64,000 nt of DNA, taken from positions 23,948 to 87,947 of the forward strand of contig JBBASA010000002.1 of the NCBI GenBank assembly GCA_040399515.1. The letters run 5' to 3'. The notes below the pieces were generated by a model that had not been told where the DNA came from, searched no databases, and saw nothing but the letters and a program-made list of their open reading frames with translations. Numbering within the stretch: position 1 is the first letter of the stretch; each line of letters opens with the position of its first letter. The translations under genes and the position numbers were made by a program. Shown here one piece after another: positions 1 to 31,844 of this stretch. Source of the stretch: Cyanobium sp. (GTDB taxonomy: Bacteria; Cyanobacteriota; Cyanobacteriia; PCC-6307; Cyanobiaceae).

Positions 1-1748
1 CTTTTATTTTAGGGATTAATGCTTTTCACGCTGATGCTTCAGCAGCCTTGATTAAAGACGGGAATATTATTGGAGCAGTTGAAGAAGAGCGGTTTAGAAG
101 AATTAAACATTGGGCTGGATTTCCTAGCCAAGCAATTAAATGGTGTTTGGATGAAGCAAACATTAAACTTGGTGATGTAGATCATATTTCAATTAACACT
201 CAGCCGAACGCTCATAAACTAAGGCGTTTGCTATATGTGATAAAAACGTTGCCGGATCCACGTTTTTTAGCAAAAAGATGGAAGAATAAGCAAGAAAGGA
301 ATGATCTTCAACAACAGTTAACACTTTCGTTTCCAGAAGAAACCATCAATGCACAATTGCATTTTATTGAACACCATCGTTCACATTTGGCATCTGCATT
401 TTACGCATCACCTTTTTTCGAATCCTCATTAATATCTATTGATGGGTTTGGTGATTTCGCAAGTTCTGCATGGGGCTATGGCGGCAATACACATATCAGA
501 GTCGATGGGCATGTGTTTTTCCCTCATTCACTAGGAGCGTTTTACACGGCAATTACCCAGTACCTTGGGTTTCCAAATTATGGAGATGAATATAAGGTCA
601 TGGGACTAGCACCTTACGGAAAACCAGTTTACTTAACGGATATGCGGCAAATCGTAAAGATCAAGAAGAATGGTACTTATGAGCTAAATCTTGACTATTT
701 TCAACACAGTGGCAAAAAGGACCTTGATCACCAATGGAGTTCCGGTACTCCGAGTGTGGGTAGACATTGGAGCGAGGGGATTGAGAAGCTGTTAGGTCCA
801 GCTAGAAAGCCTGATGAGAAACTCGAACAGAAGCATATGGATATAGCAATGTCAACTCAAGCCATGTATGAAGAGGCCTTCTTCGCGCTGCTCAACTCAA
901 TCTACAGGCGGGATAAGTCTAGAAATCTCTGTGTAGCGGGTGGTTGTGGAGCGAACTCTGTCGCAAATGGAAAGATCACAACGCATACAGAGTTTGAGAA
1001 TGTCTATGTCCAGGCAGCTGCTGGGGATGCGGGGGGTGCACTTGGTGCAGCATTAGAGGTTTGGCATCAACTTGGTAATGGGAGATGTGCGCCGATGCTC
1101 AATGCATACCTAGGATACAAATCTTCAACAAGTCAGATAAGAAACCTGCTTGAACTGTCTGATATACGTAGGAAACTTGAAACGGAAAATTGTTCTTTAG
1201 AAGAATTGAGCGATGAATCAATTTTTGAAAGAGTTTCTGACGCTTTAGTTCGAGGAGAGGTTGTTGGTTGGTTTGAAGGAAAAATGGAATGGGGACCACG
1301 AGCTCTTGGTCATCGATCAATTTTGGGAGATCCAAGGAGACACGACATGAAAGACATACTAAACATAAAGATCAAGCGTAGGGAATCATTCCGACCATTC
1401 GCACCTTCGGTTCTTAGAGAGGCAGTTAAGGATTGGTTTATGTGTGATGCTGAAGTGCCCTTTATGATGCAGGTGTTTTCAATCAAGGAAGATAAAAGAG
1501 CATTAATTCCTGCAGTGACTCATGTAGATGGAAGTGGAAGGCTACAGACTGTTTCTAAAGAACAGAATGGACGATATTATGAATTAATTAAATGTTTTTA
1601 TCAAAAGACAGGTGTGCCCATGATTTTGAATACCTCATTCAACGAAAATGAACCAATTGTATGCAAGCCTGAGGAAGCTCTTGACTGTTTCCTACGGACG
1701 AAGATGGATGTGTTAGTAATTGAAAATATATTAATCCGAAGAAAATAA
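1..1748 (+). CDS. carbamoyltransferase (NodU/CmcH family), 5' end truncated by the window edge
   Basis: The ORF track gives 48..1748 from a TTG. The same frame is open back to nt 3 and reads FILGINAFHADASAAL before IKDGNIIGAVEEERFRRIKH, a typical carbamoyltransferase N-terminus. Also seen: VAGGCGANSVANG and the C-terminal ILNTSFNENEPIV. Confidence 0.85.
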   Translation, partial: FILGINAFHADASAALIKDGNIIGAVEEERFRRIKHWAGFPSQAIKWCLDEANIKLGDVDHISINTQPNAHKLRRLLYVIKTLPDPRFLAKRWKNKQERNDLQQQLTLSFPEETINAQLHFIEHHRSHLASAFYASPFFESSLISIDGFGDFASSAWGYGGNTHIRVDGHVFFPHSLGAFYTAITQYLGFPNYGDEYKVMGLAPYGKPVYLTDMRQIVKIKKNGTYELNLDYFQHSGKKDLDHQWSSGTPSVGRHWSEGIEKLLGPARKPDEKLEQKHMDIAMSTQAMYEEAFFALLNSIYRRDKSRNLCVAGGCGANSVANGKITTHTEFENVYVQAAAGDAGGALGAALEVWHQLGNGRCAPMLNAYLGYKSSTSQIRNLLELSDIRRKLETENCSLEELSDESIFERVSDALVRGEVVGWFEGKMEWGPRALGHRSILGDPRRHDMKDILNIKIKRRESFRPFAPSVLREAVKDWFMCDAEVPFMMQVFSIKEDKRALIPAVTHVDGSGRLQTVSKEQNGRYYELIKCFYQKTGVPMILNTSFNENEPIVCKPEEALDCFLRTKMDVLVIENILIRRK

Positions 1749-2539
1749 TGTTTTCCATTCTAGTGGTAGTTCCCACGCTGAACTCATATGATTTTCTCCC
1801 AAGACTTGTAAGATCATTGCAAGATCAGTCTTTCAGTCGTTGGCGGGTATTGTTTATTGATGGAAAAAGTAGTGAGAATCATAAGGATTGGCTTCGTGAT
1901 CAATGCATACAGGACGCCCGCTTTGACTGGGAAGAACAAATATACAGCGATCAAGGGATCTTTGCGGCTATGAACCAAGGATTCAAGCACGCTACAGAAG
2001 AAGAATGGGTATTATTCTGGGGAAGCGATGATTTGGCTACAGACAAGAATGTCTTCAGAAGAGTAGAGCAGAAGCTTATAAGCATGCCTGTACAGCCAGA
2101 CCTATACATATGCAGTGGTAGATACTATTCGACGAATCAGTTGCTGGAGGATGGCTATACATTAAGGATGCAGAGATTCAGTAGGTTTATATCACGAAAG
2201 ACATTTCGTGGGTCCTTGTTTTGGGGATCAACACCACCCCACCAAGCCACCTTTTTTGGGCCAGGAGTAAGAAGACTGCTGAATAGCTATGATGAAGAAT
2301 TTAGGTTAACCGGTGATTTAGATTACTTCTTACGCTTGTCTAGACTAGATGGAATACGGGTCTTTGTCGACAAGACTGTTCTAGTTTTGATGGGCAACTC
2401 AGGAGTAAGTGCAAAGGAAAGTAAAAGAAGAATCAATGAAGTCATATCCTCCTACAAGAAGGCTTTTGGCTCTATGTGGTTTGTCCCATTTCTTTTGAGG
2501 TACTTGCAGCGTTTCTGGAGCATTTTAACTAAGATATGA
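1748..2539 (+). CDS. family 2 glycosyltransferase
   Basis: 263-aa ORF with a GT2-like N-terminus, VVVPTLNSYDFLPRLVRSLQDQS...LFIDGKSSE, and a later GSDD. The start overlaps the upstream stop by 1 nt (TAATG). Confidence 0.7.
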   Translation: MFSILVVVPTLNSYDFLPRLVRSLQDQSFSRWRVLFIDGKSSENHKDWLRDQCIQDARFDWEEQIYSDQGIFAAMNQGFKHATEEEWVLFWGSDDLATDKNVFRRVEQKLISMPVQPDLYICSGRYYSTNQLLEDGYTLRMQRFSRFISRKTFRGSLFWGSTPPHQATFFGPGVRRLLNSYDEEFRLTGDLDYFLRLSRLDGIRVFVDKTVLVLMGNSGVSAKESKRRINEVISSYKKAFGSMWFVPFLLRYLQRFWSILTKI

Positions 2540-3429
2540 CTTACACTATCTTTGGTTGCAACAATCCGAGTGGAGCATATTTTAGAGATCTCGCCTCTAT
2601 ATCATCTGTTGAGATTTGGGGGAGAACAAAACCTATCGATGGAAACTCTAAATATGTCTACTGTGATCTTAAGGCGGAACCAGAATATCCTATACATAAT
2701 ATAAGGGGTGTATTAGTTAGTTTTGCACCAATATGGTTATTGTCTGAGTATCTCTCTAAAGTTTCAGTAAAACAGCCCGAGAGCTTGAAGGATTTGAAAG
2801 GTGTCATTGCAGTTTCATCCTCATCTTATCTGACTAAGCAATTTGCTTTTTCCCACTATGACAAGAATCTAGCAAGATCTTTAAGCGAAGCCCACGCAAC
2901 CATCATACATGTGTGTCAGAGTTTAAAGATACATTGCCAGATACTTGCTCCTACACTGGTATATGGCTTGAAAGATGGATTTAAAGATCGGAATATAAGT
3001 CAGATTATTAAGATTATGCGTTTTTTTCCATTTGTCTTCTTGCCAAAATCAACAGGATTAAGGCAGCCCATCCATGCAAGTCAATTAGCTCAGGTTGCCC
3101 ACAATATGGCAGAAAGAATATTAGAAGGTACTTGGCAGAATGGCAATCCTTTGATATTGACACTTGGTGGAGATGAAATCATGAGTTACTCTCATATGTT
3201 GACAAAGATTCAGAGGTCACTACCAATCAACGATGCTGGTCGAAGATGTCGATTAATTGAGATTCCAGACAGAGTTTTTCTGATTTTTTTTGCTCTATTG
3301 TTACCCATAAATACAAAGTTATTTGAGGCGATAATGAGAATTAACAGTGATTTGGCGGGCTTCTCAAAGGCCAACAATTTGTTAGCCGAAAAACCAAAAG
3401 ATTTTCCAGTACTTCCCCTTTCACTTTGA
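2536..3429 (+). CDS. atypical extended-SDR / NAD-dependent epimerase-dehydratase-like protein (WbpK-like position)
   Basis: 297-aa ORF. Degenerate N-terminal Rossmann loop IFGCNNPSG, APTLVYG and RQPIHASQLAQV resemble extended SDRs. ATGA overlap with the GT2 gene. Confidence 0.45.
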   Translation: MTYTIFGCNNPSGAYFRDLASISSVEIWGRTKPIDGNSKYVYCDLKAEPEYPIHNIRGVLVSFAPIWLLSEYLSKVSVKQPESLKDLKGVIAVSSSSYLTKQFAFSHYDKNLARSLSEAHATIIHVCQSLKIHCQILAPTLVYGLKDGFKDRNISQIIKIMRFFPFVFLPKSTGLRQPIHASQLAQVAHNMAERILEGTWQNGNPLILTLGGDEIMSYSHMLTKIQRSLPINDAGRRCRLIEIPDRVFLIFFALLLPINTKLFEAIMRINSDLAGFSKANNLLAEKPKDFPVLPLSL

Positions 3430-3430
3430 T

Positions 3431-4333
3431 ATGCTTATCAGATTCATGCCTATTACTTTTATTCTTTCAGCAACCATGAGCTGGTTGTTAACTGGCTGTC
3501 TTATTCCCTACTTGAAAAGTGGCTTCATGGATAATCCAAATCATAGAAGTTCTCATATTAGAGCTACTCCAAGAGGAGGAGGTCTTGCTTTTGTCTTAGT
3601 TGGAACACTGTTAAACTTTGTTTATGAAACTGGTCCATCAAGATGGATTCCTGTTGCTTGCCTCCCTTTAGCACTTGTTGGTTTGGTAGATGACTTCAAG
3701 GAACTACCGGCCGCTTTAAGGTACATTGTTCAATTTGTAACTGCGATTGTTCTTGTTGCGCTAGCAGATCGACCTATGTCCATCTGGTTGTCAATGATAT
3801 CTGTCCTACTGATTACGGGGATCATAAATTTTACAAACTTCATGGATGGTCTTGATGGGCTTGTTGCAGGATGTGGGGTGATTTTGATGGCATCAACATC
3901 CTGTTGGGCGATCTCAGGAGCAATCTTTGGCTTTTTAATTTGGAATTGGGCACCAGCCAAAGTTTTTATGGGTGATGTAGGCAGTACATACATTGGGGCT
4001 ATATTTGGAGGAATGCTGATACATACACGTACTGATCACGCTACACTCTCACTACTCCTTATTGGTTTTCCTCTATTTGCAGATGCCTTCGTATGCGTAA
4101 TTCGACGCTTTGTAAATGGAGAAAATATTGTCGAAGCTCATCGAAAGCACCTATTCCAAAGACTGCAACAGGCTGGTTGGTCTCATCAAAAGGTGGCCAG
4201 CCTGTACATAGGTGCGGTAGGAATTCTTCTGTTAAGTTATACTATTGGGGGCTTTTCTGTTCTGGTTGTTTCCATTCTTGGTGAATTCATCATTGCATTC
4301 TACTTGGAAAGATGTGTGGCGACAAAATTTTAA
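3431..4333 (+). CDS. polyprenyl-phosphate HexNAc-1-phosphate transferase (MraY/WecA/WbpL family, GT4 superfamily)
   Basis: 300-aa polytopic membrane ORF with HRSSHIRATPRGGGLAF, VDDFKELP and NFTNFMDGLDGL motifs. Confidence 0.8.
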   Translation: MLIRFMPITFILSATMSWLLTGCLIPYLKSGFMDNPNHRSSHIRATPRGGGLAFVLVGTLLNFVYETGPSRWIPVACLPLALVGLVDDFKELPAALRYIVQFVTAIVLVALADRPMSIWLSMISVLLITGIINFTNFMDGLDGLVAGCGVILMASTSCWAISGAIFGFLIWNWAPAKVFMGDVGSTYIGAIFGGMLIHTRTDHATLSLLLIGFPLFADAFVCVIRRFVNGENIVEAHRKHLFQRLQQAGWSHQKVASLYIGAVGILLLSYTIGGFSVLVVSILGEFIIAFYLERCVATKF

Positions 4334-4398
4334 GCCGCCTAGATCTTATGCTATGATGTATCGATGATTCAAGTTAAAAGAATCAAAAAAGTTTTCTT

Positions 4399-6342
4399 GT
4401 GGAAACATCTCCCAAAGATTCAGTTTCTATGACATTTAGTTGGCTTCTATATATCACTCATCCCCATCTAAACATTGTTGGCAGGAGACTCCTGCTTCTT
4501 GGTCTAGATGGAATTTTGATTGTTATTGCTTTTTATGGTGCTATTGCTTTAAGACTGAATAATCCCGTAGATATCGGCATTTTCCTTACTAAACAAAAAG
4601 CATTGCTTCCAGCAGCAATAGTAAGTGGTTTAGGAGTTTTATGGTTATCAGGCTGGTATAGGGGTTTAACTAGGTACACAGGAAGTTATTCCCTTTATGG
4701 CCTGATTCCAAGAAGTTTCTTAATGGTATTGTTATTACTATTTATTAGTACTCGTTTCTACGCAATTAGCCCTCCTAGATCATACTGGGTTCTATATTGG
4801 CTTTTGTTTACAGGTGGAGCTATCACTATGAGGATAGTCATGCGCGATTTACTTTTGCACCAAATTGATAATAGAAGTTCAATTCTTAATCAAGATGAAT
4901 CGTTACCTAGTAACCCAACTTTGATCTATGGAGCAGGTTCATCTGGATTAACACTACTAATGGCATTGAGGAACGATTCACGATTTAAGGTTATTGGCTA
5001 TCTAGATGATGATCCTGTCCTACATGGACGTACCCTACAGAATCAGGTTATATACTCACCTGATAAGCTTCCAAATCTGATCAATAAATTCTCTATCAGT
5101 CAGGTTCTTTTGGCTATGCCTTCAATCTCAAGACAACGAAAACGCTATCTTGTTGATAATCTAACTCATCATGGAATAACTGTACTTTCTATTCCTTCTC
5201 TCGGGCAATTGGCTAGCGGTTCTAGAACGGTAAGTGATTTAAAGAATGTTGCCATAGAAGATTTACTTGGCAGAGAACCTTCTAATCCACTTATCAACTT
5301 GCTGGAATCAAGTGTAAAAGACAAGGTGGTTCTCGTCACTGGAGCTGGCGGATCGATTGGTAGCGAACTATGTAGACAAATATCTCAACTGGGTGTTAAG
5401 CATCTTGCCATCCTTGAGCTAAATGAATATGCTCTATATTGCATTAGCAAGGAGTTGAGCACGAATCATCCAGAGATACAGCTAACTTGCCTCCTGGGAA
5501 ATGTGTTAGATATGGGATTTGTCTGTAAGATTTGTGGTCAGTTAAACGTCAACACAATTTTCCATGCTGCTGCCTACAAGCACGTTCCGCTTGTCGAGGA
5601 GAATATATGTGCAGGAGTTTCAAATAACATCAGAGGGACTATGTCAGTTATTCAGGCAGCGAAGGACAATAAAATTGAACGCTTGATGTTAATTTCAACA
5701 GACAAAGCGGTTAGACCTACAAACGTTATGGGTGCAAGCAAACGAATTTGTGAGTTACTCATTCAATCTGCAGCAGAAGAGCACACTTCATTTGGTCCGA
5801 TTTTTTCTATGGTAAGGTTTGGAAATGTTCTTGGATCCTCAGGTTCGGTGATCCCTCTCTTCCATGAACAAATCGAGAAAGGTGGTCCAGTTACCGTAAC
5901 CCATCCAGCAGTGACTAGATATTTTATGACTATTCCAGAGGCTGTCCAACTGGTTCTCCAATCTACTGGGATGGCAGTAGGTGGGGATGTTTTTTTACTA
6001 GACATGGGCGAGCCAGTTAGAATTGCTGATCTTGCTAGGCAGATGATTGAGTTGTCAGGTCTACGAGTTAAAGATCAAAAGACTCCTGATGGTGATATAT
6101 CTATTGAATTCACAGGTCTTAGACCCGGGGAAAAGCTTTACGAAGAGCTTCTGATTAGTGCGCATGATCAGCCTACAGATCATCCTCTCATCAGACGAGC
6201 AAGAGAACCAAAAGGAGATAAGATAACTCTAGACTTGATAATTAAAGAGCTGGTCATTGCTCTCAAAAACTGGGATGAGATAAAAACGTATTCGCTTATC
6301 CGCGAACTCGTACCTGAGTTTAACATTAAACAGGAGCCATGA
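4399..6342 (+). CDS. membrane-anchored nucleotide-sugar 4,6-dehydratase/epimerase (CapD/WbpM/PglF family)
   Basis: 647 aa with N-terminal transmembrane segments and two Rossmann regions, IYGAGSSG and VLVTGAGGSIGSEL. Also ISTDKAVRPTNVMGASKR. GTG start at 4399; an alternative ATG lies at 4429. Confidence 0.85.
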   Translation: METSPKDSVSMTFSWLLYITHPHLNIVGRRLLLLGLDGILIVIAFYGAIALRLNNPVDIGIFLTKQKALLPAAIVSGLGVLWLSGWYRGLTRYTGSYSLYGLIPRSFLMVLLLLFISTRFYAISPPRSYWVLYWLLFTGGAITMRIVMRDLLLHQIDNRSSILNQDESLPSNPTLIYGAGSSGLTLLMALRNDSRFKVIGYLDDDPVLHGRTLQNQVIYSPDKLPNLINKFSISQVLLAMPSISRQRKRYLVDNLTHHGITVLSIPSLGQLASGSRTVSDLKNVAIEDLLGREPSNPLINLLESSVKDKVVLVTGAGGSIGSELCRQISQLGVKHLAILELNEYALYCISKELSTNHPEIQLTCLLGNVLDMGFVCKICGQLNVNTIFHAAAYKHVPLVEENICAGVSNNIRGTMSVIQAAKDNKIERLMLISTDKAVRPTNVMGASKRICELLIQSAAEEHTSFGPIFSMVRFGNVLGSSGSVIPLFHEQIEKGGPVTVTHPAVTRYFMTIPEAVQLVLQSTGMAVGGDVFLLDMGEPVRIADLARQMIELSGLRVKDQKTPDGDISIEFTGLRPGEKLYEELLISAHDQPTDHPLIRRAREPKGDKITLDLIIKELVIALKNWDEIKTYSLIRELVPEFNIKQEP

Positions 6343-7274
6343 ATAACCTCACTTTTAGCTTAGCTTTGCTCAAAGACTTTCAACCAAAGTCAATGGTTGC
6401 TTTCTTGGTGAATAAGATACCTCCACCAACATCTCGCAACCTATGGTTAACACTCTCAGCTTTAGTAGCGCTCCAGAGTCTAGTTGTATTTACCAACACC
6501 CAAATAACTGGAAATGCCATAACAGCCCTTATTGTCTGGGGTGGAGCGCTTATCTGTATTGAAGATTTAATTGAGAATATGCGACCTAATCCTTCAAGGA
6601 TCAGCCTTGGATTAGGAGGAGTCTTGATACTATACACTTTGTATAGAACATCACAGGTCAATGGTTCTGACTCCTTCCTTTATTTGCTAGTCCCCATCGC
6701 AGGATTAGGCCTTATCCTTCTAGCGAATCCGATTGCCAATATCTGGAAATATAGAGATGCTCTATTAACTCTGTCTTTATTGCCATTATTCTTGGTTATA
6801 CAAGTCATTGTTGCTACCTACGTAACGAATGACCTTTCAATCATGACCGCAAAATTCGTCATGCTGTGGCTTGGACTTTTGGGAATAGAGCCAACACGTC
6901 TCGAAGGTAATACAGTCTTCATCAATGGAGGTGCTGTACAGGTTATGCATGAATGTAACGGATTGGAGATGATCATGCAAATGTTTATTACCGCTGTGAT
7001 TTTTCTTTTAGCATTTCCACTGCGTTCTAGATTGGGTCGTATAGCAGTTGTTATTTTATCCCCTTTTATTGGATTTATTGTTAACTCATTCAGGATTGCT
7101 TTGCTTGCAGTCTTTACAGGATTGAATTCAGACATTGGTAGGTCAATGTTTGATTTTTTCCATGAACAGGCAGGTTCACTAATCTTTTCAGGGATAGCTG
7201 TTTTCGTTCTTGGGTATCTTTACCTTACAATCCTCAACCGTGAGCTCCCACCCATATGGGATGAAGAAACATGA
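6339..7274 (+). CDS. exosortase, cyanoexosortase-A-like
   Basis: 311-aa polytopic ORF. The three exosortase signature regions are visible: AVQVMHECNGLEMIMQ (Cys), GFIVNSFRIALLAV (Arg) and FFHEQAGSLIFSG (His). ATGA overlap with the capD-like gene. Confidence 0.8.
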   Translation: MNNLTFSLALLKDFQPKSMVAFLVNKIPPPTSRNLWLTLSALVALQSLVVFTNTQITGNAITALIVWGGALICIEDLIENMRPNPSRISLGLGGVLILYTLYRTSQVNGSDSFLYLLVPIAGLGLILLANPIANIWKYRDALLTLSLLPLFLVIQVIVATYVTNDLSIMTAKFVMLWLGLLGIEPTRLEGNTVFINGGAVQVMHECNGLEMIMQMFITAVIFLLAFPLRSRLGRIAVVILSPFIGFIVNSFRIALLAVFTGLNSDIGRSMFDFFHEQAGSLIFSGIAVFVLGYLYLTILNRELPPIWDEET

Positions 7275-7930
7275 ATCAAGACTGCAAGCGACCCTACCTC
7301 ATTTTAATAGTCTTGGCTCTTTTGGCCTCCGGTTACTCTTATTTTAAAACTGGGATAAGCTCACCTGTATATCCATCCATATTGACCTCGAGACTTTTAG
7401 CATTGGATTCGATAGAACCTCCTATCTCCACTTCATCTAAGCTGTTAGATGAGGATACTTCAGATCGAATGTTGTCACCCATGCATCAATATACGTTCCG
7501 TGACGGTTCTAAATTATTAGCTGTAATGGTTAGGATCCGGAAGAGAGATGACTTTAAGATTGAGACCTATGGATTGCTTACGAAAGGAATCGAACCAATT
7601 TATATAAAGTCTCCATCCTTTAACAATGCAGTTCCATACTCCATGTTAGGTGTAATTAATGGGAAGGAAGCACTTCAGACATGTGTCATTCCTGGAACAA
7701 CTAAGTTAGATCAAGTTAATGTCCAACTATTCCCGCTGCTTTCCCAAGCCGAACAACTTGCTGGAAGTAGTCAGTCTTTAAGTTCTAAGTTTTTGGGTAC
7801 TGATGATAGATCTGATTACTCTTGTCTTGTACTTACCTACCATCCAAAATCAGTTAAAGGAGCAACCAAGGCTTGGACTTCCATCATTGAAAATGCACAA
7901 CTTGCTTTATCCAGTAGAAATGATTTATAA
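7271..7930 (+). CDS. exosortase-associated EpsI-like protein (cyanoexosortase system-associated)
   Basis: 219 aa with a single N-terminal transmembrane segment, YLILIVLALLASGYSYF. ATGA overlap with the exosortase gene. The assignment rests mainly on position and size. Confidence 0.5.
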   Translation: MNQDCKRPYLILIVLALLASGYSYFKTGISSPVYPSILTSRLLALDSIEPPISTSSKLLDEDTSDRMLSPMHQYTFRDGSKLLAVMVRIRKRDDFKIETYGLLTKGIEPIYIKSPSFNNAVPYSMLGVINGKEALQTCVIPGTTKLDQVNVQLFPLLSQAEQLAGSSQSLSSKFLGTDDRSDYSCLVLTYHPKSVKGATKAWTSIIENAQLALSSRNDL

Positions 7931-7971
7931 TTTCTTTATTGATTTATCAAAGTCTACATCATCTGCTTTCA

Positions 7972-8517
7972 ATGTTTTCCAATTTTTTTAAGAGAAAAAA
8001 ACCTACGGCTTCTGTAGAACGGTCTGTATTTCAACCAAGAGATTCCAACGTATCAGATCCCCCTTTAATATACAGTTGGATTATAACTAATAAACTTGCT
8101 ATTGGTCCAATGCCAAAAACGAGTTCACATTGGAGACAACTAGATTATGATGGATTTCGAAATCGATTTAGTTGCTGCTTCCCTAATGAACATATCTTTG
8201 CCCCCATACCAGATCATTGGAATAGCAGAGAAGTATCATTGCCAGATCATAGAGAACAGACCCATCTTGAAAAAGCAACACTTGTGTTAGCTTTAAAAGA
8301 AGCCGAGGAGATGATCTTAATGAGTTCGGAACCTGTATATCTTCACTGCCTTGCTGGACAAGAACGATCTGCCTTGATAGCAATCGGTTTAGTTAGCATA
8401 CTGGAAAACAAAGATTTATTTGATAGTATAGCTTTTGTTAGACAATGCCACAAGAAAGCCAAACCGTTATATGGTCAACTTGATCTGTTAGAGCAAGTCC
8501 TAAGAGATAGTTTTTAG
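7972..8517 (+). CDS. Cys-based protein phosphatase (dual-specificity / PTP-like, CX5R)
   Basis: Active-site loop VYLHCLAGQERSALIA fits HCxxGxxRS. The ORF track starts at TTG 7939; the first ATG is at 7972. Confidence 0.7.
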   Translation: MFSNFFKRKKPTASVERSVFQPRDSNVSDPPLIYSWIITNKLAIGPMPKTSSHWRQLDYDGFRNRFSCCFPNEHIFAPIPDHWNSREVSLPDHREQTHLEKATLVLALKEAEEMILMSSEPVYLHCLAGQERSALIAIGLVSILENKDLFDSIAFVRQCHKKAKPLYGQLDLLEQVLRDSF

Positions 8518-8521
8518 TGAT

Positions 8522-11047
8522 CTAGGATTGGTTCGTTTTGTCAGGATTTACCTTATCAGCTACTGTACTAGAGCTATCCATATCTGCTGATTCTTCTTGG
8601 AGATATCTATTTCCAAAATATGAATCCTTTGCTTTCTTGAAGTATCCATTTAAGCCTTGGTTCTTATAGCTATCGGAATAGGAGTAACCATAGTGGTAGT
8701 AATAGCCATATTCATATCCGTAATCATTTAGATTTGTGGGGAACGAAACCTGATTGCAGATCATTCCTAACACATCTACACCAGTAGCTTTGATTCGACG
8801 AACAGCTTGGGGCGCAATTCGTCGTGAAACCTTACCAAGGCCTACTAAGAAGAGAATTCCATCTAACTTTTCCCCCAAAAGAATCGGATCAGCAAGCATC
8901 AAACATGGAGGTGTATCAAAGAGAACAATGTCATAATCCGTTGAATTTCTGATCGATTCAATAACATCTTGACAACGTGAAGAGTTTAGAAGTTTTGCTG
9001 GGTCAGGTGGTTTAGGACCTGAGGAGATAAAGTCGAAGTTTTCTTGCACTCTTACGATCAGCGATTGTAAATCAGATCGAGAATCTGTTAGGAGTGTGGA
9101 GAAACCATCTTCCCCAGATGCAATGCCAAGATATTTTGCCTGAGTTGGCAATCTCATATCCGCGTCAACAACAAGAACTTTTAGGCCTAGGTCAGCAAGA
9201 GTACGTGCAAAGATTGATATTGATGTGGATTTTCCTTCACCTTGAGTAGATGAAGTTACACCTACTAATTTAATATCTCTGTCTGCACGTAAAAGTCTAA
9301 ATGTAGTAAAAAGGCTTCGGAGGGATTCTTTAATCGCAAATCTCTCGCTTGCAGTCATTTTGGAAATACTTTTGCTAATATTCAGGCCTGGCTCCAGCGG
9401 CAAATATGGAATAAGACCAAGAACTGGGAGTTGGAGTTCTTTCTCAGCATCAGAGGGTGTATGAAAAACATTATCTGTTCTGTCTCTTATATATGCGGCA
9501 GCAGCTCCTCCGAGTAAACCAAACAAAAGTGCTCTGATAAGATTATCCTTAACATTCGGAGAAACTGGGTCAGGTGAAAAATATGGTGGAGATATAACTT
9601 GCCATGGAGTTACGAACCTTGCCTTCTCTAACTTAAAATTCTCCATAGCTGAGACATAAGAAGCATAATTTGCCCTTGCAGATTCCAATCTTTGTGAAAT
9701 GTCTGTAAATTCTTTTAACTTGTCTGGACTATTTCTGAAATTTTGATTGAGTAAGAGTATTTGTCTGTTCAACTCATCCTGCTGTTTAACATTCTGAAAC
9801 AATTTCTCTCGGAGAACGTCCAGTTGCTGGTTTTTTACAACTGGAGCTAACGCATCTCTTTTAGCAAGGATCGACTTAACAATAGGTGAGTCGTCACGAT
9901 AAATAGCTCTTGCTCTCGCCAGCTCGATTTCGAATTTCTGGTATTCGCTTGATGGACTCGAGGTGCCAACGGTTTCCTCTAAGACACGATCGGCGGAATC
10001 ACCGGCAGCTGGAATAAGAGTTCCTTGGCGACCAAGTTGTTGGATAGGCGTAGGTGCACCAGAAGGAGTGTATGAAAATTTGCCAGACTGCACGGTTTTC
10101 ATTTGGTTTTCAATTCTCGACTGATCGACCTGTAACGCTCCAACCTGCGCAACAAGAGAATCTCTCTGCGCAATAATTGCTGCAGCATTTTCAGTCGGAT
10201 CAACAACTAGATTTTTTTCACGGAAAGCCCGAAGCTTGTTCTCATATCTGTTGACATTCGAGAGGATTGTGGGGGCTTGGGAATCCAGCCACTTCATGCC
10301 TGCATCGATACTTTGCTGGCGTTGTACCAATGAAAACTGGACATAATCTTTGGCCAGATTTTCAAGAATTAAACGACCCTGCTCTGGATTTCTCCAGTTG
10401 AGGGTGACGTTCATAACTGCTGTAGTCCCTTCTGCCTGATCAATTCGTAACTTTTGAATGATATCCCTTTTGTTCAAACCTAATCTGTCAGCCGTAGGAC
10501 CAACTACAAGTGGGCTTGTCAGCAATGAGCGCAAGGCAGGTATATTACTTTTAACCTGTGCTCTAGCTAGGGCTTCTATTTTGCCTTCACCACCGATAAC
10601 TTGGTTTTGCTCTGCTGGTACAGCTGACTCAATTTGAAGCTTAAAATCGCCGGCAAAATCAGGATTGAACTTACGCTCACGAAATGTGTTAAGCGCCCAC
10701 AAGCTTGATATTAGCGCAGTAGTAAAAAGAAAGATTCCTTGACGTCTCTTGAGTGTTCGAACGAGGCTTCCAAAGCCTCCATCACCGGAATCACCAGAAC
10801 CTAAAGGCGAAAAATTGGGATCGCCCTGACTGCCGGAGTTTTGCGCCAAGCCAGGAGGAAGAGGAGGAAGGACTGGACCACTCCCGGTGGGCTGGACAGA
10901 AGATCCCGATGTCGTCACAGAGACAGTGCACTTGACTGGTAATAATAGATGAGCCGGGGAATCAGTCAAGTCAAACCGATCAGTTTGGAATCCATCACCC
11001 AAACAGTGCTGAGCATCGAGTTGTGCGTTTAAGGTAGATAACCTCAT
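8522..11047 (-). CDS. wzc: polysaccharide co-polymerase with C-terminal tyrosine autokinase (Wzc/GumC type)
   Basis: 841 aa. Walker A TSSTQGEGKST, Walker A' VLVVDADMRLP, Walker B YDIVLFDTPP. C-terminal Tyr cluster YGYEYGYYYHYGYSYSDSY. A long coiled periplasmic region lies between two transmembrane segments. Confidence 0.85.
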   Translation of the reverse strand: MRLSTLNAQLDAQHCLGDGFQTDRFDLTDSPAHLLLPVKCTVSVTTSGSSVQPTGSGPVLPPLPPGLAQNSGSQGDPNFSPLGSGDSGDGGFGSLVRTLKRRQGIFLFTTALISSLWALNTFRERKFNPDFAGDFKLQIESAVPAEQNQVIGGEGKIEALARAQVKSNIPALRSLLTSPLVVGPTADRLGLNKRDIIQKLRIDQAEGTTAVMNVTLNWRNPEQGRLILENLAKDYVQFSLVQRQQSIDAGMKWLDSQAPTILSNVNRYENKLRAFREKNLVVDPTENAAAIIAQRDSLVAQVGALQVDQSRIENQMKTVQSGKFSYTPSGAPTPIQQLGRQGTLIPAAGDSADRVLEETVGTSSPSSEYQKFEIELARARAIYRDDSPIVKSILAKRDALAPVVKNQQLDVLREKLFQNVKQQDELNRQILLLNQNFRNSPDKLKEFTDISQRLESARANYASYVSAMENFKLEKARFVTPWQVISPPYFSPDPVSPNVKDNLIRALLFGLLGGAAAAYIRDRTDNVFHTPSDAEKELQLPVLGLIPYLPLEPGLNISKSISKMTASERFAIKESLRSLFTTFRLLRADRDIKLVGVTSSTQGEGKSTSISIFARTLADLGLKVLVVDADMRLPTQAKYLGIASGEDGFSTLLTDSRSDLQSLIVRVQENFDFISSGPKPPDPAKLLNSSRCQDVIESIRNSTDYDIVLFDTPPCLMLADPILLGEKLDGILFLVGLGKVSRRIAPQAVRRIKATGVDVLGMICNQVSFPTNLNDYGYEYGYYYHYGYSYSDSYKNQGLNGYFKKAKDSYFGNRYLQEESADMDSSSTVADKVNPDKTNQS

Positions 11048-11064
11048 GCACGGGTCCCAAGCTG

Positions 11065-12177
11065 ATGAGATTGGTCTGGAGCCAGGGCTTTAAGCTCAGT
11101 TTTAATTCATTTGCCGTAGGTTCTTGCGCGATTGCCTGTATTGCGTCTGGTTTGCCGCTTTCTTCGCGACCTCTGACCAATGATGTCGTGGCAAACTTAT
11201 CGATGGGCTCGACCAATTCTGAACCTGTTCCCTCGATCACAGAAACATATTCCGATCTCTACACCCTAGGTCCAGGAGATACGTTAACGCTAACGTTTTT
11301 AGATCCAGAATTAAAGAGTGTGGGTGGTGGTATAACTGTTCTTCCAGATGGAACTGCTGTTCTTCCGTTGGTAGGTTCTGCTCAACTATCTGGGTTAACC
11401 ATAGGTCAAGCCACCCGTTGGTTAACATCTCTCTACCAAAAGCAAGTTGTTCGGCCAGAACTTCTTCTTAGTTTACGAACTGCACGCCCAACAAAAGTAA
11501 CTGTCATCGGTGAGGTTCTCAAACCTGGTCTTTTGGAATTGGGCGGCATACCCCGTGTTGTCAGTGCCATTCAGAAAGCAGGTGGTATTTCCCCCAATGC
11601 AGATATACGCAGAGTTTTGCTTCGTCGTGTAGTTGGTCAAAGCGGAGCTCAAAAGCAAACCTTTATTGATTTATCACAAGTTTTTTTGTTGGGGAACCAA
11701 TTTCAAAATCCAGTTTTATTTGATGGAGATACTTTAATTATTGGCAGAGCTTCTGAACCAATTCCTGACGAAGTGATTCGAATCGGACGTACAAACTTAG
11801 CCCCTACTTCTATAAATATTACTATACTTGGCGAAGTCAAATCAGCTGGAACTGTCTCCTTGCCCGCAAACACACCTCTGATTGAAGCAATTTTTAGGGC
11901 TGGTGGTCTTAAAAAATGGCGAGCCAATAAAAACCATATTGAGTTAATTCGTTTTAATGATAACGGTACAACTACACGTCAGGTTTTTGCTTACAAGGAT
12001 GATCTCAACGTTTCTAATGGCTTTAATCCTCCACTAAGAGATCGTGACACTATCATTGTCAACCGTACTTTCTATGGAGAGGCTCTTGATGCACTTAATG
12101 ATATTGCAGTCCCGATCGGGATTATCAACAATCTTGGCGGATTTGGTGGAGGTTGGGGCAACTGGAACAATCGCTAA
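11065..12177 (+). CDS. wza: outer-membrane polysaccharide export protein (Wza/OPX family; Poly_export plus SLBB-like repeats)
   Basis: 370 aa with signal/lipobox-like FAVGSCAIACIASG. YTLGPGDTLTLTF is the Poly_export signature. Repeated GEVxxPG...AGG units are present (VIGEVLKPGL...AIQKAGG; ILGEVKSAGT...AIFRAGG). Confidence 0.8.
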   Translation: MRLVWSQGFKLSFNSFAVGSCAIACIASGLPLSSRPLTNDVVANLSMGSTNSEPVPSITETYSDLYTLGPGDTLTLTFLDPELKSVGGGITVLPDGTAVLPLVGSAQLSGLTIGQATRWLTSLYQKQVVRPELLLSLRTARPTKVTVIGEVLKPGLLELGGIPRVVSAIQKAGGISPNADIRRVLLRRVVGQSGAQKQTFIDLSQVFLLGNQFQNPVLFDGDTLIIGRASEPIPDEVIRIGRTNLAPTSINITILGEVKSAGTVSLPANTPLIEAIFRAGGLKKWRANKNHIELIRFNDNGTTTRQVFAYKDDLNVSNGFNPPLRDRDTIIVNRTFYGEALDALNDIAVPIGIINNLGGFGGGWGNWNNR

Positions 12178-12201
12178 TCTTTTCCATCATCTTCTAAAAC
12201 C

Positions 12202-13422
12202 ATGACTCACAAAGTTCCTAATCCAAATCAAAAGGTCAACAAGAAAGCCATCGCTTGGGCTCTTTTTAGCCAATCCATATGGTTACCAGTTTTATTTACG
12301 GATACACAAGATCAGATTGCAAGTAATAGTAGCGATTATGATTTTTCAGGCGTCGCTGCTAACATTCCTCATCAGAACTTACCAAAACAAATTTCCCTTG
12401 CCAAATCTTTAGATCACTCCACTGTTGGCTTACTTGCACAATCATCAAAGATTGTTGAAACCAATGGTGTGATTTTGAATGCAGCTCTACCCAAGGAAAG
12501 AAGCATTCATAGCAAGCTCGAAAGCATCAATTCGCCTGTATCTATTTCCTCACCAGTTGCTTTCAGTACATCTCTACTTCCACCATCAAGTCCTGTTGCC
12601 CTCAGTCTCAATTCCAGAAATTTTGAGCCTAAATCCCTAGCTCCTGCTGAACGTGCGAATGAATTGCCACCTTCTGATTTGCTACGTAGGTTGTATTCAC
12701 GCTCCGATCTACTTGGTGGAAACCTTACTTTAGGAGACCTGAATGAGCCTCTAATGCCTCCCTTAGCTCGTGCTGAAAGGGCTCAATCGACCCGAACAGG
12801 TGATCCTCTTTCAACTATTCCACAAATGTGGAGAGAGCCCATGAGAAAAGCATTAAGGTCATTATCTGATAATTTAAAGCCTCTATCGGGCCCTGTTTCA
12901 AGTAGATCCACAGGTGTAATTACTGTTGAGCAGGCTCGTGTGATTCACGTTCCCTCATCAAGGGTGAAGCGTTTCTCAGAAGTTCCCCTAGCTCTTCAAT
13001 CTGATGGCACAGTCGATATTCTGAATAGTCCAGATGACCCTGAAGTTGTAGAGGAGATCAAAACTTGGTCCTCTAAGCAACAATTACCAGCAAAAGGGCG
13101 AATGGCTCCAGCAGTGGTTCACCTTCATCCTTTACCTAAGCAAGAACAGGTTCCTGCCTCGGAGAAGGTGACAAAATCAGATTTAAAATTGCCTCAAGAG
13201 ATTCAAACAACAATTCAGCCAGTACAGAAGCTCGCTCCAGAGCTGCAAGAAGCCTCCGTGCGAGATGCTCTTCCACCAACACCTTCGGCACCCACACCCC
13301 CAACTCCACCACCCATCACTGAGTCGCAAACAAGCGAACTGCTACCCCCTGAATCGCAAACAAGAATCGCAGAAGTTCACTCTGACTTATCCACTGCTGA
13401 GAGTAAGGGAGAGATTCAATGA
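12202..13422 (+). CDS. hypothetical membrane-anchored Ser/Pro-rich protein
   Basis: 406-aa ORF with one N-terminal hydrophobic segment, AIAWALFSQSIWLPVLF, and a Pro-rich tail, PPTPSAPTPPTPPPI. It sits between wza and the beta-barrel gene and shares an ATGA overlap with the latter. Confidence 0.5.
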   Translation: MTHKVPNPNQKVNKKAIAWALFSQSIWLPVLFTDTQDQIASNSSDYDFSGVAANIPHQNLPKQISLAKSLDHSTVGLLAQSSKIVETNGVILNAALPKERSIHSKLESINSPVSISSPVAFSTSLLPPSSPVALSLNSRNFEPKSLAPAERANELPPSDLLRRLYSRSDLLGGNLTLGDLNEPLMPPLARAERAQSTRTGDPLSTIPQMWREPMRKALRSLSDNLKPLSGPVSSRSTGVITVEQARVIHVPSSRVKRFSEVPLALQSDGTVDILNSPDDPEVVEEIKTWSSKQQLPAKGRMAPAVVHLHPLPKQEQVPASEKVTKSDLKLPQEIQTTIQPVQKLAPELQEASVRDALPPTPSAPTPPTPPPITESQTSELLPPESQTRIAEVHSDLSTAESKGEIQ

Positions 13423-14120
13423 AGTTTCGCACTTTTTGTGGATCATCTTTAGTCTTCGCGTTGTTTTGCGCTATCGCACCTACTGCCTACTCCCAAGTCC
13501 AGGTTTTACCAAGCAAGCCTGTGTGGCAGCAAGCCCCTGCGGAATCATTGAATCAATCGATTCAATGGACTGCCGTAGAGAATTTTGGGGACGTACCAAC
13601 CCAATTTATGCCTGTTCCAGCAAAAACAGATCCTAGAGAGTTGGCGGCAAAACCAAGAGTAGAGGGACCCTATAAATCAAGAGGCATCTACGGTTTCGGA
13701 GGTGGAGTTAGACCTGGTACCTACACGGGTGATCCAACAAACGCCCTGTTTACAGCTAGAGTTGCTTACAAACTTGACCAAGATTTTTCAATCTCTCTTC
13801 GCCCGAGCATCCTAATTGGAAACGATGACAACAATAATGACAATAACAACAATAATGATAACAATAATGACAGCGGTTGGGAGGCCAGGATTCCATTAAC
13901 GATCGACCTTTTCAACCGCAGTTTTATCACACCCTTCTTTGGCGGCGGAATTGCAACGAATGTCGACGGCTTAGGCTACACCGATGGCATGCTAACAGCT
14001 GGCGTAGATCTTAACATTACAAAATGGCTTACAGTCGGATCTCACGTTAATTATATATATCAAACCAATATAGACGATACGGACTGGGAGGTTCTCAGCA
14101 TGATTTACCTCAGATTTTAA
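13419..14120 (+). CDS. small outer-membrane beta-barrel-like protein with an Asn/Asp low-complexity loop
   Basis: 233 aa. Signal peptide SSLVFALFCAIAPTAYS-Q, alternating aromatic/polar strands, and a C-terminal ...IYLRF ending in Phe, typical of BAM substrates. Confidence 0.55.
   Translation: MKFRTFCGSSLVFALFCAIAPTAYSQVQVLPSKPVWQQAPAESLNQSIQWTAVENFGDVPTQFMPVPAKTDPRELAAKPRVEGPYKSRGIYGFGGGVRPGTYTGDPTNALFTARVAYKLDQDFSISLRPSILIGNDDNNNDNNNNNDNNNDSGWEARIPLTIDLFNRSFITPFFGGGIATNVDGLGYTDGMLTAGVDLNITKWLTVGSHVNYIYQTNIDDTDWEVLSMIYLRF
13821..13871 (+). repeat. AAY/GAY codon repeat encoding NDDNNNDNNNNNDNNND
   Basis: Read directly: aac gat gac aac aat aat gac aat aac aac aat aat gat aac aat aat gac. Confidence 0.9.
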
Positions 14121-14126
14121 GGTAGT

Positions 14127-14648
14127 TCACAGAACCCGATAGGCTACTTGATTCACCGTTTCTTTAATTTCGCATTTCTGCTCATCGTCATATCCCCATC
14201 TTTCGAGAAAGTTTTTATCTTCGCCTCTTTCGTTCAGTCCTTCAACAAGGGTTTCAAGTCTACTTTTGACCTGAAGCGGTTCAAGCAGCCTTAAAAGATC
14301 AAGACATCTTGAGCGAACCCGCAAGGATCCATCCAACAGCGCTTGGTCTTGATTGCGTTTGTGATGAACCCCCATAGCAGTACTCATCGCAAGATTACGG
14401 ACGGTTAGATCAACAACCTCTTCACCAGCCAATCGCAACTGGCAGATGAGGGGCTCAGGCAGACGATCCATCAGGGGGGAGTCGCTGGTGAGGGAGGCCA
14501 CAAAGAATCCTCTTGCCCCGTCTCTCTGACGTACCAGCTCCCCGACGGTATCCGCCAGGACATCGTCGCTCAGCTCTTCCTGATCCCAGCGACGAATCCA
14601 CTCCGTGCTCTGGGCGATGGCTTCTTGAAAAGACAGTGGCTTGGACAT
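14127..14648 (-). CDS. conserved hypothetical protein, compositionally mosaic
   Basis: The ORF is 14127..14669; the internal ATG at 14648 (MSKPLSF...) leaves room for the divergent era promoter. The 5' half is about 60% GC and the 3' half about 35-47% GC. Confidence 0.55.
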   Translation of the reverse strand: MSKPLSFQEAIAQSTEWIRRWDQEELSDDVLADTVGELVRQRDGARGFFVASLTSDSPLMDRLPEPLICQLRLAGEEVVDLTVRNLAMSTAMGVHHKRNQDQALLDGSLRVRSRCLDLLRLLEPLQVKSRLETLVEGLNERGEDKNFLERWGYDDEQKCEIKETVNQVAYRVL

Positions 14649-14711
14649 GAAACGTTTGGGACCAAGCACCCATTTTGGTCAAGGGAGGACATTGACTGCC
14701 AGATTTGGTGG

Positions 14712-31772: not shown

Positions 31773-31844
<72 letters not shown>

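What the first reader, a model, noticed from the sequence alone, without database searches (positions are those of the whole stretch)
6339..7930. Cyanoexosortase plus EpsI-like partner embedded in a sugar operon, with no PEP-CTERM substrate in view
The 311-aa ORF shows the three exosortase signature regions: Cys in HECNGLEM, Arg in NSFRIAL and His in FFHEQAGS. It is translationally coupled by ATGA overlaps to the capD-like dehydratase upstream and to a single-TM partner downstream. None of the ORFs in the island ends with a PEP motif followed by a transmembrane segment and a basic tail. The sorting substrate is therefore either outside the window or not a classical PEP-CTERM protein. The residue context of the catalytic Cys (E-C-N-G) also differs from the G-C-S-G I recall for cyanoexosortase A. 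Direct fusion of protein sorting with an EPS operon on a transferred island suggests a portable unit of unknown cargo.
Basis: partly seen in the sequence, partly recalled or inferred. Interest (0 to 1): 0.65.

Follow-up and report, generated by a model that had tools for sequence, protein, structure and literature searches.

The report
Picocyanobacterial exosortase pair in capsule locus
This is a real but fairly ordinary exosortase (a membrane enzyme that processes surface-protein sorting tails) with a dedicated, unnamed partner protein, sitting in a conserved cell-surface polysaccharide gene cluster of freshwater picocyanobacteria; its target proteins are not encoded nearby, which is normal for this enzyme family.

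Summary
ORF 6339-7274 is an exosortase: it passes Pfam PF09721 and the TIGR04178 signature model, Cys206, Arg252 and His275 are invariant, and it has eight hydrophobic segments. ATGA overlaps couple it to a CapD-like dehydratase upstream and a 219-aa single-helix partner downstream. No PEP-CTERM-like tail occurs in the window, in 8 kb upstream, or in about 800 kb of related loci.

The enzyme is closest to cyanoexosortase A but fails its cutoff (115.8 vs 150 bits), as do all 17 relatives tested. The partner is not EpsI by sequence. It belongs to an unnamed family that follows this exosortase in 70 of 73 loci.

The "portable unit on a transferred island" reading is not supported. The same gene order lies at the same chromosomal site, beside era-cpeS-trmD, in dozens of picocyanobacterial contigs with locus GC from 0.38 to 0.74, and there is no plasmid or phage copy. 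Exosortases inside EPS loci with scattered substrates are the published norm.

Verdict: an uncurated CrtA-like exosortase subtype with a new partner family in a resident Wza/Wzc-type polysaccharide locus. The substrate is unknown and could not be tested here. Modest interest.

The parts
1..1748 (+). Carbamoyltransferase gene. Its start lies about 3 nt before the window; in L012 the gene encodes 583 aa.
   Evidence: PF02543/PF16861 on the orthologues; ORF; L012 is 99.95% identical to the window.
1748..2539 (+). Family-2 glycosyltransferase.
   Evidence: PF00535 on the identical L012 gene and on orthologues.
2536..3429 (+). Conserved 297-aa protein with no family match.
   Evidence: No Pfam or NCBIfam hit; syntenic in nearly all loci.
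3431..4333 (+). WecA/MraY-type polyprenyl-phosphate sugar-phosphate transferase (initiating enzyme).
   Evidence: PF00953 at 85.2 bits; TIGR02380 wecA-like, sub-threshold.
4399..6342 (+). CapD/WbpM/PglF-like membrane-anchored nucleotide-sugar 4,6-dehydratase. Its stop overlaps the exosortase start (ATGA).
   Evidence: PF02719 at 384.5 bits; junction sequence.
6339..7274 (+). Exosortase, 311 aa, about 8 TM segments, Cys206/Arg252/His275. It is CrtA-like but below the CrtA cutoff.
   Evidence: PF09721 88.9 bits; TIGR04178 48.8 bits; TIGR03763 115.8 bits against a cutoff of 150; invariant residues; hydropathy.
7271..7930 (+). Partner protein, 219 aa: an N-terminal helix plus an alpha/beta domain of about 190 aa predicted to be periplasmic. 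It has invariant Q136-x-C138 and C185 and an RKRDDFKIETYGLLTK motif. The family is unnamed.
   Evidence: Alignments A1 and A4; AF2 pLDDT 81; no family, PDB or fold match; directly downstream of the exosortase in 70/73 loci.
7939..8517 (+). Cys-based protein phosphatase (CX5R, Cys137), the likely cognate phosphatase of the Wzc kinase.
   Evidence: Weak PF00782 DSPc hit, E=0.0014; CLAGQER motif; syntenic.
8522..11047 (-). Wzc-like chain-length determinant and tyrosine autokinase with a Tyr-rich C-terminal tail.
   Evidence: TIGR01007 121.9 bits against a cutoff of 108; tail YGYEYGYYYHYGYSYSDSY.
11065..12177 (+). Wza-like outer-membrane polysaccharide export protein.
   Evidence: PF02563 plus SLBB domains.
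12202..13422 (+). Conserved Pro-rich 406-aa protein of unknown function. Only a central block of about 130 aa is conserved across loci.
   Evidence: No family hit; the tblastn block is conserved in almost all loci.
13419..14120 (+). Small protein resembling an outer-membrane beta-barrel. It is the last low-GC gene of the island.
   Evidence: Weak PF13505 hit, E=8.7e-4; the GC3 step occurs after this gene.
14127..15668 (.). Core-genome flank: UCP020893 (-) and era (+). These mark the fixed chromosomal site of the locus.
   Evidence: Pfam families on the orthologues; GC3 of 0.51 and 0.70 against 0.26-0.43 in the island.

Best explanation
The two genes encode a CrtA-like exosortase and its dedicated periplasm-facing partner. 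They are a fixed component of a resident Wza/Wzc-type (Wzy-dependent) surface-polysaccharide locus found at one chromosomal site in freshwater picocyanobacteria (the Cyanobium/Synechococcus group).

Shown: family membership; the invariant Cys-Arg-His residues; eight hydrophobic segments; obligate pairing with the partner; conserved translational coupling to the CapD-like dehydratase; conserved synteny and chromosomal position; and transcript-derived contigs in lake metatranscriptomes.

Inferred by analogy with XrtA and CrtB. The enzyme acts as an intramembrane cysteine transpeptidase or protease. It recognises a C-terminal tripartite sorting signal (probably a PEP-CTERM variant) on Sec-exported proteins encoded elsewhere in the genome. 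It removes the membrane anchor and releases or attaches these proteins so that they hold the locus's polysaccharide at the cell surface. The partner probably helps with substrate or acceptor recognition on the periplasmic side. The low GC reflects the usual atypical composition and allele turnover of surface-polysaccharide loci, not a mobile element.
For: Family: PF09721 88.9 bits and TIGR04178 48.8 bits, both above cutoff; best subtype CrtA at 115.8 bits. C206, R252 and H275 are invariant in 44 sequences down to 37% identity. Eight hydrophobic segments.

Pairing: a partner-family ORF lies directly downstream in 70/73 loci. ATGA/GTGA overlaps are conserved in L010, L007 and L008.

Synteny: capD-exo-partner-PTP-Wzc(-)-Wza-unk406-(OMP)-UCP(-)-era-cpeS in L001-L002, L007-L008, L010 and most of L014-L077, with locus GC 0.38-0.74.

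Polysaccharide machinery: Wzc TIGR01007 at 121.9 bits against 108, Wza domains, WecA-like GT4, CapD, and upstream glycosyltransferases plus a Wzy-like 469-aa multi-pass protein.

Not on plasmids or phages.

Expression: metatranscriptome contigs span the capD/exosortase junction and both genes.

Literature: about 90% of EpsH homologues lie near EPS genes and PEP-CTERM genes are numerous and dispersed (PMC1569441). CrtB lies in a Wzx/Wzy locus and is needed to retain polysaccharide at the cell surface (PMC12188702).
Against: No substrate has been identified. No PEP-CTERM-like tail was found in the window, in 8.25 kb upstream, or in 798 kb of homologous loci. The rest of the genome could not be scanned, so it is not known whether these organisms have any PEP-CTERM proteins. 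The enzyme fails the curated cutoff of every named subtype, so the sorting signal cannot be inferred from subtype. The partner has no detectable relationship to EpsI and only a noise-level link to the CrtA-associated family (3/57 members, best E=0.005). No biochemical evidence exists for any member of this clade.
Confidence: 0.6

Rival explanations
1. Non-classical cargo. This exosortase clade recognises a sorting signal that is not PEP-CTERM, or it transfers its substrate onto a sugar or lipid-linked intermediate made by the co-translated CapD/WecA-like enzymes. That would be analogous to the attachment of type IX secretion cargo to a glycolipid through a Wbp-pathway linking sugar.
For: The enzyme fails all subtype models. 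An invariant C-N-G context and extra invariant residues (W36, W67, C73, E75, D76) mark the clade. Translational coupling to the 4,6-dehydratase is conserved across about 42% identity. The partner family is new. Precedents exist for exosortases with a partner and no known target, such as XrtF (PMC12188702), and for T9SS cargo glycolipid linkage (PMC7468200, title and abstract only).
Against: The nearest subtype by a wide margin is CrtA (115.8 bits against 51.8 for the next), and CrtA belongs to the PEP-CTERM world. Gene adjacency and coupling do not show a chemical link. Absence of substrates in cis is uninformative because substrates are normally dispersed.
Confidence: 0.22
2. Portable unit. 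The exosortase, partner and sugar genes form a horizontally transferred cassette that carries its own sorting function between hosts.
For: Island GC is 0.38-0.45 (GC3 0.26-0.37) against 0.60-0.68 in the core (GC3 0.70 at era). Low-GC and high-GC versions of the locus occur in hosts of similar era divergence: L001 has exosortase identity 72% and L007 has 43%, at era identities of 69% and 67%. This is compatible with allele replacement by recombination.
Against: The chromosomal site and gene order are identical in dozens of contigs across the clade, including native-GC loci (GC 0.61-0.74). Low GC occurs in both sequence classes of the exosortase. There is no match on 72,556 plasmid or 50,697 phage records. 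No tRNA lies at the visible right boundary. All ORFs called in the visible part of the island are sugar, export or envelope genes, or have no family match.
Confidence: 0.08
3. Polysaccharide-handling role. The 8-TM protein acts as a flippase, polymerase or ligase for the polysaccharide rather than as a protein-sorting enzyme. This is the older suggestion made for EpsH of Methylobacillus.
For: It is always embedded in the sugar operon, and no Wzx was recognised in the 72 kb seen. The historical proposal is cited in PMC1569441.
Against: The invariant Cys/Arg/His triad typical of exosortase and archaeosortase transpeptidases is retained. A separate Wzy-like multi-pass protein is present upstream. 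EpsH disruption did not affect methanolan synthesis (PMC1569441).
Confidence: 0.05

Closest known systems
Cyanoexosortase A (CrtA, NCBIfam TIGR03763) with its associated protein (TIGR04153)
   Same: CrtA is the best-scoring subtype, aligned over residues 37-296 and model positions 9-257 of 260. The host is a cyanobacterium. A small single-helix protein lies immediately downstream. JGI pipelines label the relatives 'cyanoexosortase A'.
   Different: The score is 115.8 bits against a cutoff of 150, and all 17 relatives tested score 97-129. NCBI names the relatives only 'exosortase/archaeosortase family protein'. The partner does not match TIGR04153: the window protein and the consensus sequences give no hit, and only 3 of 57 relatives hit at E>=0.005. 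The C-N-G context is invariant here.
EpsH/EpsI of Methylobacillus sp. 12S and XrtA systems (TIGR02602, TIGR03109, TIGR02914)
   Same: An exosortase sits inside an EPS locus with a downstream partner, next to Wza/Wzc-type export and tyrosine-kinase genes. The XrtA-system models for the kinase, chain-length determinant and exporter give sub-threshold hits to Wzc and Wza here.
   Different: XrtA scores only 35.6 bits against 208. There is no EpsI homology. No PrsK/PrsR/PrsT regulators are seen. No PEP-CTERM genes lie near the locus.
Cyanoexosortase B (CrtB) of Nostoc punctiforme (PMC12188702)
   Same: A cyanobacterial exosortase located in a Wzx/Wzy-type polysaccharide locus. Its experimentally supported role, keeping the polysaccharide attached to the cell through PEP-CTERM proteins, is the best functional model for this pair.
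   Different: CrtB (TIGR04156) does not appear among the window protein's hits at E<=0.01 and scores at most 52 bits against 300 for relatives. The paper reports CrtB in nearly all filamentous strains and notes its absence from some commonly used unicellular models. Here the host is a unicellular picocyanobacterium.
XrtF with its adjacent partner in Flavobacterium johnsoniae (cited in PMC12188702; PMC10936215)
   Same: A variant exosortase with an obligatory adjacent partner, a surface or biofilm role, and no known target proteins.
   Different: The phylum and subtype differ: no XrtF (TIGR04128) hit appears for the window protein at E<=0.01. No partner homology was shown.

Membership tests
Exosortase/archaeosortase superfamily (PF09721, TIGR04178) | HMM score above the curated cutoff | tested here: met
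   PF09721 88.9 bits against 25.7; TIGR04178 48.8 bits against 23.
Exosortase/archaeosortase superfamily (PF09721, TIGR04178) | Conserved Cys, Arg and His signature residues | tested here: met
   C206, R252 and H275 are invariant in 44 sequences; motif positions verified.
Exosortase/archaeosortase superfamily (PF09721, TIGR04178) | Polytopic membrane protein with about 8 TM segments | tested here: met
   Eight hydrophobic segments by a hydropathy scan. This is a heuristic, not a topology predictor.
Exosortase/archaeosortase superfamily (PF09721, TIGR04178) | Cognate C-terminal sorting-signal proteins (motif, TM helix, basic tail) in the same genome | not testable with these tools
   Only about 72 kb of this genome and the neighbourhoods of related loci could be read, and none was found there.
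Cyanoexosortase A (TIGR03763) | Score at or above the 150-bit cutoff of the subtype model | tested here: not met
   115.8 bits. All 17 relatives tested score 97-129 bits.
Cyanoexosortase A (TIGR03763) | Adjacent cyanoexosortase A system-associated protein (TIGR04153) | tested here: inconclusive
   A partner is adjacent, but the window protein and the family consensus sequences give no hit at E<=10. Only 3 of 57 relatives hit weakly, best E=0.005.
Cyanoexosortase A (TIGR03763) | Cyanobacterial host | tested here: met
   Flanking cpeS, ctaCD and other core genes. Relatives are named Cyanobium, Synechococcaceae or Cyanobacteriota by NCBI.
Cyanoexosortase A (TIGR03763) | Residue context of the catalytic Cys as in CrtA seed sequences | not tested
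Here C-N-G is invariant, and sister clades show C-S-G or C-A-G.
EpsI family (TIGR02914, PF11984) | Sequence match to the EpsI model | tested here: not met
   No hit at E<=10 for the window protein or for the family consensus sequences. At E<=10 none of the 57 relatives shows the NCBIfam EpsI model. At E<=0.01 the 37 distant relatives hit nothing in NCBIfam or Pfam, and the window protein hits nothing in Pfam.
EpsI family (TIGR02914, PF11984) | Encoded immediately downstream of, or fused to, an exosortase | tested here: met
   4-nt overlap in the window; adjacent in 70/73 loci.
Wzy-dependent (Wza/Wzb/Wzc-type) polysaccharide assembly locus | Outer-membrane exporter and a PCP tyrosine autokinase | tested here: met
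   Wza: PF02563 plus SLBB domains. Wzc: TIGR01007 121.9 bits against 108, with a Tyr-rich tail.
Wzy-dependent (Wza/Wzb/Wzc-type) polysaccharide assembly locus | Wzy polymerase and Wzx flippase | tested here: inconclusive
   A 469-aa multi-pass protein without a Pfam hit lies upstream in L012 and may be Wzy. No Wzx was recognised in the stretch seen.
Mobile genomic island or integrative element | Integrase or transposase genes, a tRNA or att-type boundary, and occurrence on plasmids, phages or at varied sites | tested here: not met
   The site next to era is fixed in all loci with flanks. No tRNA lies at the boundary. There are no plasmid or phage matches. The left end of the island lies outside the data.

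The most novel reading that the evidence does not exclude
Freshwater picocyanobacteria carry an uncurated exosortase subtype (invariant C-N-G) with an obligate, previously undescribed periplasmic partner family. It is co-translated with the sugar-nucleotide dehydratase of a capsule-like locus. It may recognise a so far unrecognised sorting signal, or attach its cargo to the locus's own glycan, rather than processing classical PEP-CTERM proteins.
Probability: 0.2. Interest if true: 0.6.

Novelty: new variant of a known kind. Interest (0 to 1): 0.33.

Why it matters
[quoted passage not shown] Their surface polysaccharides affect grazing, phage adsorption, aggregation and carbon export. The work shows that a whole clade keeps an exosortase-partner pair hard-wired into its main surface-polysaccharide locus, and it defines a partner family that is in neither Pfam nor NCBIfam. 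That gives annotators a concrete case for a new subtype model. It gives experimentalists a simple target: delete the pair, then look at cell-bound polysaccharide and the exoproteome. It does not by itself reveal a new mechanism. Its placement in an EPS locus and the lack of a nearby substrate are what the exosortase literature already describes.

Tried and rejected
1. EpsI homology of the partner. NCBIfam and Pfam scans at E<=10 of the window protein, NCBIfam at E<=10 of 57 relatives, both libraries at E<=0.01 of 37 distant relatives, and both libraries at E<=10 of three consensus sequences all gave nothing for EpsI. Rejected at the sequence level.

2. Link of the partner to TIGR04153. Only 3 of 57 relatives hit weakly. 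An exhaustive profile search of 1.84 billion representatives and a merged-profile search found only unnamed picocyanobacterial proteins. Left as inconclusive.

3. Fold of the partner. The AF2 model is adequate (pLDDT 81), but Foldseek against the PDB gave no significant match (best E=0.056, TM<=0.26). There are no PDB sequence relatives for either protein.

4. Substrate search. A PEP-type regex and a generic C-terminal helix plus basic tail scan were run on the window, on 8.25 kb upstream and on 77 loci. There were no credible hits. The few generic hits were permease-like tails or spurious ORFs. A positive control for the regex was considered only by hand; none was run on a real PEP-CTERM protein.

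5. Mobility. Plasmid and phage tblastn searches found nothing. The tRNA scan found only tRNA-Val at 31773, far from the island.

6. Literature. No paper in the held library links PEP-CTERM or exosortases to picocyanobacteria. PMC3256604, the id I recalled for the 2012 exosortase and archaeosortase classification paper, is not held.

7. The conserved 406-aa and 233-aa proteins downstream of Wza, and the partner itself, were considered as in-locus substrates. Rejected: none has a C-terminal helix with a basic tail.


Full report
**Observation.** The window has a 40% GC block from position 1 to about 14,120, next to 60-68% GC core sequence. GC3 is 0.26-0.37 in the island genes from capD to unk406, 0.43 in the last island gene, and 0.70 at era. 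Within the block, ORF 6339-7274 (311 aa) and ORF 7271-7930 (219 aa) are as described. The three motifs are at residues 204, 249 and 273. Both junctions are ATGA start/stop overlaps. The 311-aa protein passes Pfam PF09721 (88.9 bits, cutoff 25.7, E=4.4e-25) and the NCBIfam exosortase/archaeosortase signature model TIGR04178 (48.8 bits, cutoff 23). It has eight hydrophobic segments. In an alignment of 44 relatives down to 37% identity, Cys206, Arg252 and His275 are invariant, as are Asn207, Gly208 and an N-terminal W..W-G...C-x-E-D block.

**Subtype.** The best subtype model is cyanoexosortase A (TIGR03763) at 115.8 bits, but its curated cutoff is 150. The next best, CrtC, scores 51.8 against 225. 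Ten relatives from the syntenic loci and L003 score 98-129 bits. Seven sequences from more distant contigs include four further exosortases that score 97-111 bits. None passes any named subtype. JGI pipelines call the relatives 'cyanoexosortase A', while NCBI calls them only 'exosortase/archaeosortase family protein'. This is therefore a consistently CrtA-like but uncurated clade. C-N-G is invariant in this clade, whereas sister clades from the metagenome scan have G-S-C-S-G, G-P-C-S-G or C-A-G. I could not compare with true CrtA seed sequences.

**Partner.** The 219-aa protein has an N-terminal helix (AF2 helix 6-26) followed by an alpha/beta domain. The model has mean pLDDT 81 and pTM 0.76. 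Eighty-seven close homologues exist, all labelled 'hypothetical' and none with a Pfam domain. Their alignment shows an RKRDDFKIETYGLLTK motif and invariant Q136, C138 and C185. An exhaustive profile search of 1.84 billion representative proteins found only 52 hits. The distant hits are the partners of the high-GC versions of the same locus, and across both groups P35, Q136, C138 and C185 remain invariant. Neither group, nor their consensus sequences, matches EpsI (TIGR02914, PF11984) or any other family. The only hint is a weak hit to TIGR04153, the cyanoexosortase A system-associated protein, in 3 of 57 members (best E=0.005). I rate that as inconclusive. A merged-profile search returned nothing new or named. 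Foldseek against the PDB and a sequence search of the PDB gave nothing significant. 'EpsI-like' therefore holds only for position and architecture. Across all fetched loci, a partner-family ORF lies directly downstream of the exosortase in 70 of 73 cases with room. The three exceptions belong to the C-A-G clade, whose downstream ORF still carries the LQTC...YEC motifs.

**Context.** The flanking genes are a carbamoyltransferase, a GT2, an unknown 297-aa protein, a WecA-type initiating transferase and a CapD/WbpM-like dehydratase. After the pair come a CX5R phosphatase, a Wzc-like tyrosine autokinase on the opposite strand with a Tyr-rich tail, a Wza-like exporter, a Pro-rich 406-aa protein and a small protein resembling an OM barrel. 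A contig 99.95% identical to the window (L012) extends 8.25 kb upstream. It shows more glycosyltransferases, an epimerase and a 469-aa multi-pass, Wzy-like protein, all at 39% GC. This is a Wzy-dependent capsule or EPS locus.

**Is it a transferred, portable unit?** The same gene order, from the carbamoyltransferase through the OM barrel, lies next to the same core genes (UCP020893, era, cpeS, trmD) in MAGs and metagenome contigs whose exosortases are 42-90% identical to the window's. A metagenome scan added 64 loci. Almost every one with enough flank shows capD-exo-partner-PTP-Wzc(-)-Wza-unk406-...-UCP(-)-era-cpeS, and locus GC ranges continuously from 0.38 to 0.74. Native-GC versions exist: L007 at 0.71, L008 from Cyanobium sp. 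FGCU-52 at 0.68, and L023 at 0.70. Low GC occurs in both sequence classes of the exosortase. No homologue exists on 72,556 plasmid or 50,697 phage records. The only tRNA in the window is 17 kb away from the island. The low GC therefore marks a compositionally atypical, probably recombining surface-polysaccharide locus at a fixed site, not a mobile cassette. Some allele exchange remains plausible. At similar era divergence (69% and 67%), L001 has a 72%-identical exosortase and L007 a 43%-identical one. The rest of the window is ordinary core genome: pheS, NAD kinase, ctaCD, topA, MscS and Ppx.

**Substrate.** No PEP-like motif followed by a hydrophobic helix and a basic tail was found in any frame of the window, in a generic scan for a C-terminal helix plus basic tail, in the 8.25 kb upstream, or in 798 kb of related loci. 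The refutation condition 'PEP-CTERM proteins immediately upstream' is therefore not met. This absence is not anomalous. The founding paper reports one or two EpsH genes against dozens of dispersed PEP-CTERM genes per genome, and about 90% of EpsH homologues near EPS genes (PMC1569441). [quoted passage not shown] XrtF has an adjacent partner and no known targets (PMC12188702). Whether these picocyanobacteria have PEP-CTERM proteins at all could not be tested. No whole genome was accessible, and the literature held here is silent on the point.

**Expression and provenance.** The stretch occurs in many freshwater and lake metagenomes. Contigs from three RNA-labelled runs (two metatranscriptomic libraries and one labelled 'METAGENOMIC RNA-Seq') cover the capD/exosortase junction (6313-6497, 6233-6469), the exosortase (6514-6771, 6844-7188) and the partner (7270-7479) at 90-99% identity. 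This is consistent with transcription through the coupled genes. DNA carry-over cannot be excluded.

**Mechanism.** The pair is most likely a cysteine transpeptidase and its periplasmic accessory subunit. They would process C-terminally anchored, Sec-exported proteins encoded elsewhere, which then associate with the polysaccharide made and exported by the surrounding genes. Shown: family membership, catalytic residues, pairing, coupling, synteny and expression. Inferred: the reaction, the substrates and the link to polysaccharide retention. I give the classical reading 0.6 and a non-classical signal or glycan-linked transfer 0.22. The portable-island reading gets 0.08, a polysaccharide-handling role 0.05, and other possibilities take the remainder.

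**Novelty.** The kind of system, an exosortase with a partner in an EPS locus, is well known. The new points are that this clade escapes every curated subtype model, that its partner family is undescribed, and that its placement is fixed across freshwater picocyanobacteria. I classify it as a new variant of a known kind with modest interest (0.33).

Noticed in passing
window 1-14120; L001-L002, L007-L008, L010, L014-L077: The same syntenic polysaccharide locus at the same chromosomal site has GC anywhere from 0.38 to 0.74 in different picocyanobacteria. The flanking era gene stays at 0.60-0.72 in the loci where it was measured. Low GC occurs in both sequence classes of the exosortase, which suggests repeated AT-drift or allele exchange at this site.
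   Followed up: partly
L075 9938-11598; also L071, L073, L074: A second, paralogous exosortase-partner pair (C-A-G context, CrtA score 103-108 bits for the two typed, L075 and L074). Its partner carries the same LQTC...YEC motifs. In L075 the pair lies outside any sugar locus, next to two AraC-family regulators, HlyD/FtsX genes, a PAS-HAMP histidine kinase and purD.
   Followed up: partly
window 7271-7930 and alignment A1: 30 of 57 close partner homologues, and 5 of 37 distant ones, have a lipobox-like L-x-[GAS]-C at the end of the N-terminal helix. The window's copy has Gly there (LLASG). Some partners may be lipoproteins and others signal-anchored.
   Followed up: partly
window 12202-13422: A Pro-rich 406-aa protein that is always found between Wza and the small OM-barrel-like protein. 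Only a central block of about 130 aa is conserved across loci (46-59% identity in the loci). It has no Pfam or NCBIfam family.
   Followed up: no
window 13419-14120: The small OM-barrel-like protein contains an Asn/Asp low-complexity insert (NDDNNNDNNNNNDNNNDSG).
   Followed up: no
window 14127-14669 (-) and 14625-15668 (+): The longest era ORF (TTG start at 14625) overlaps the end of the convergent-looking UCP020893 ORF by 45 nt. In L010 the called genes do not overlap, so the true era start is probably further downstream.
   Followed up: no
L003 13141-19024 (-): Near a distant exosortase-partner pair lies a giant repetitive surface-type protein with tandem repeats of about 100 aa (VDYATADGTATAGSDY..., which look Calx-beta-like to me). 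The ORFs overlap in two frames, which suggests an assembly frameshift. It has no PEP-CTERM tail.
   Followed up: no
window 24577-25626: A 349-aa ORF without any Pfam match lies in a local GC dip (0.55) between pheS and NAD kinase.
   Followed up: no
window 8522-11047 (-): The Wzc-like protein is 841 aa here against 778-817 aa in relatives. It has a Pro/Gly/Ser-rich low-complexity N-terminal extension.
   Followed up: no
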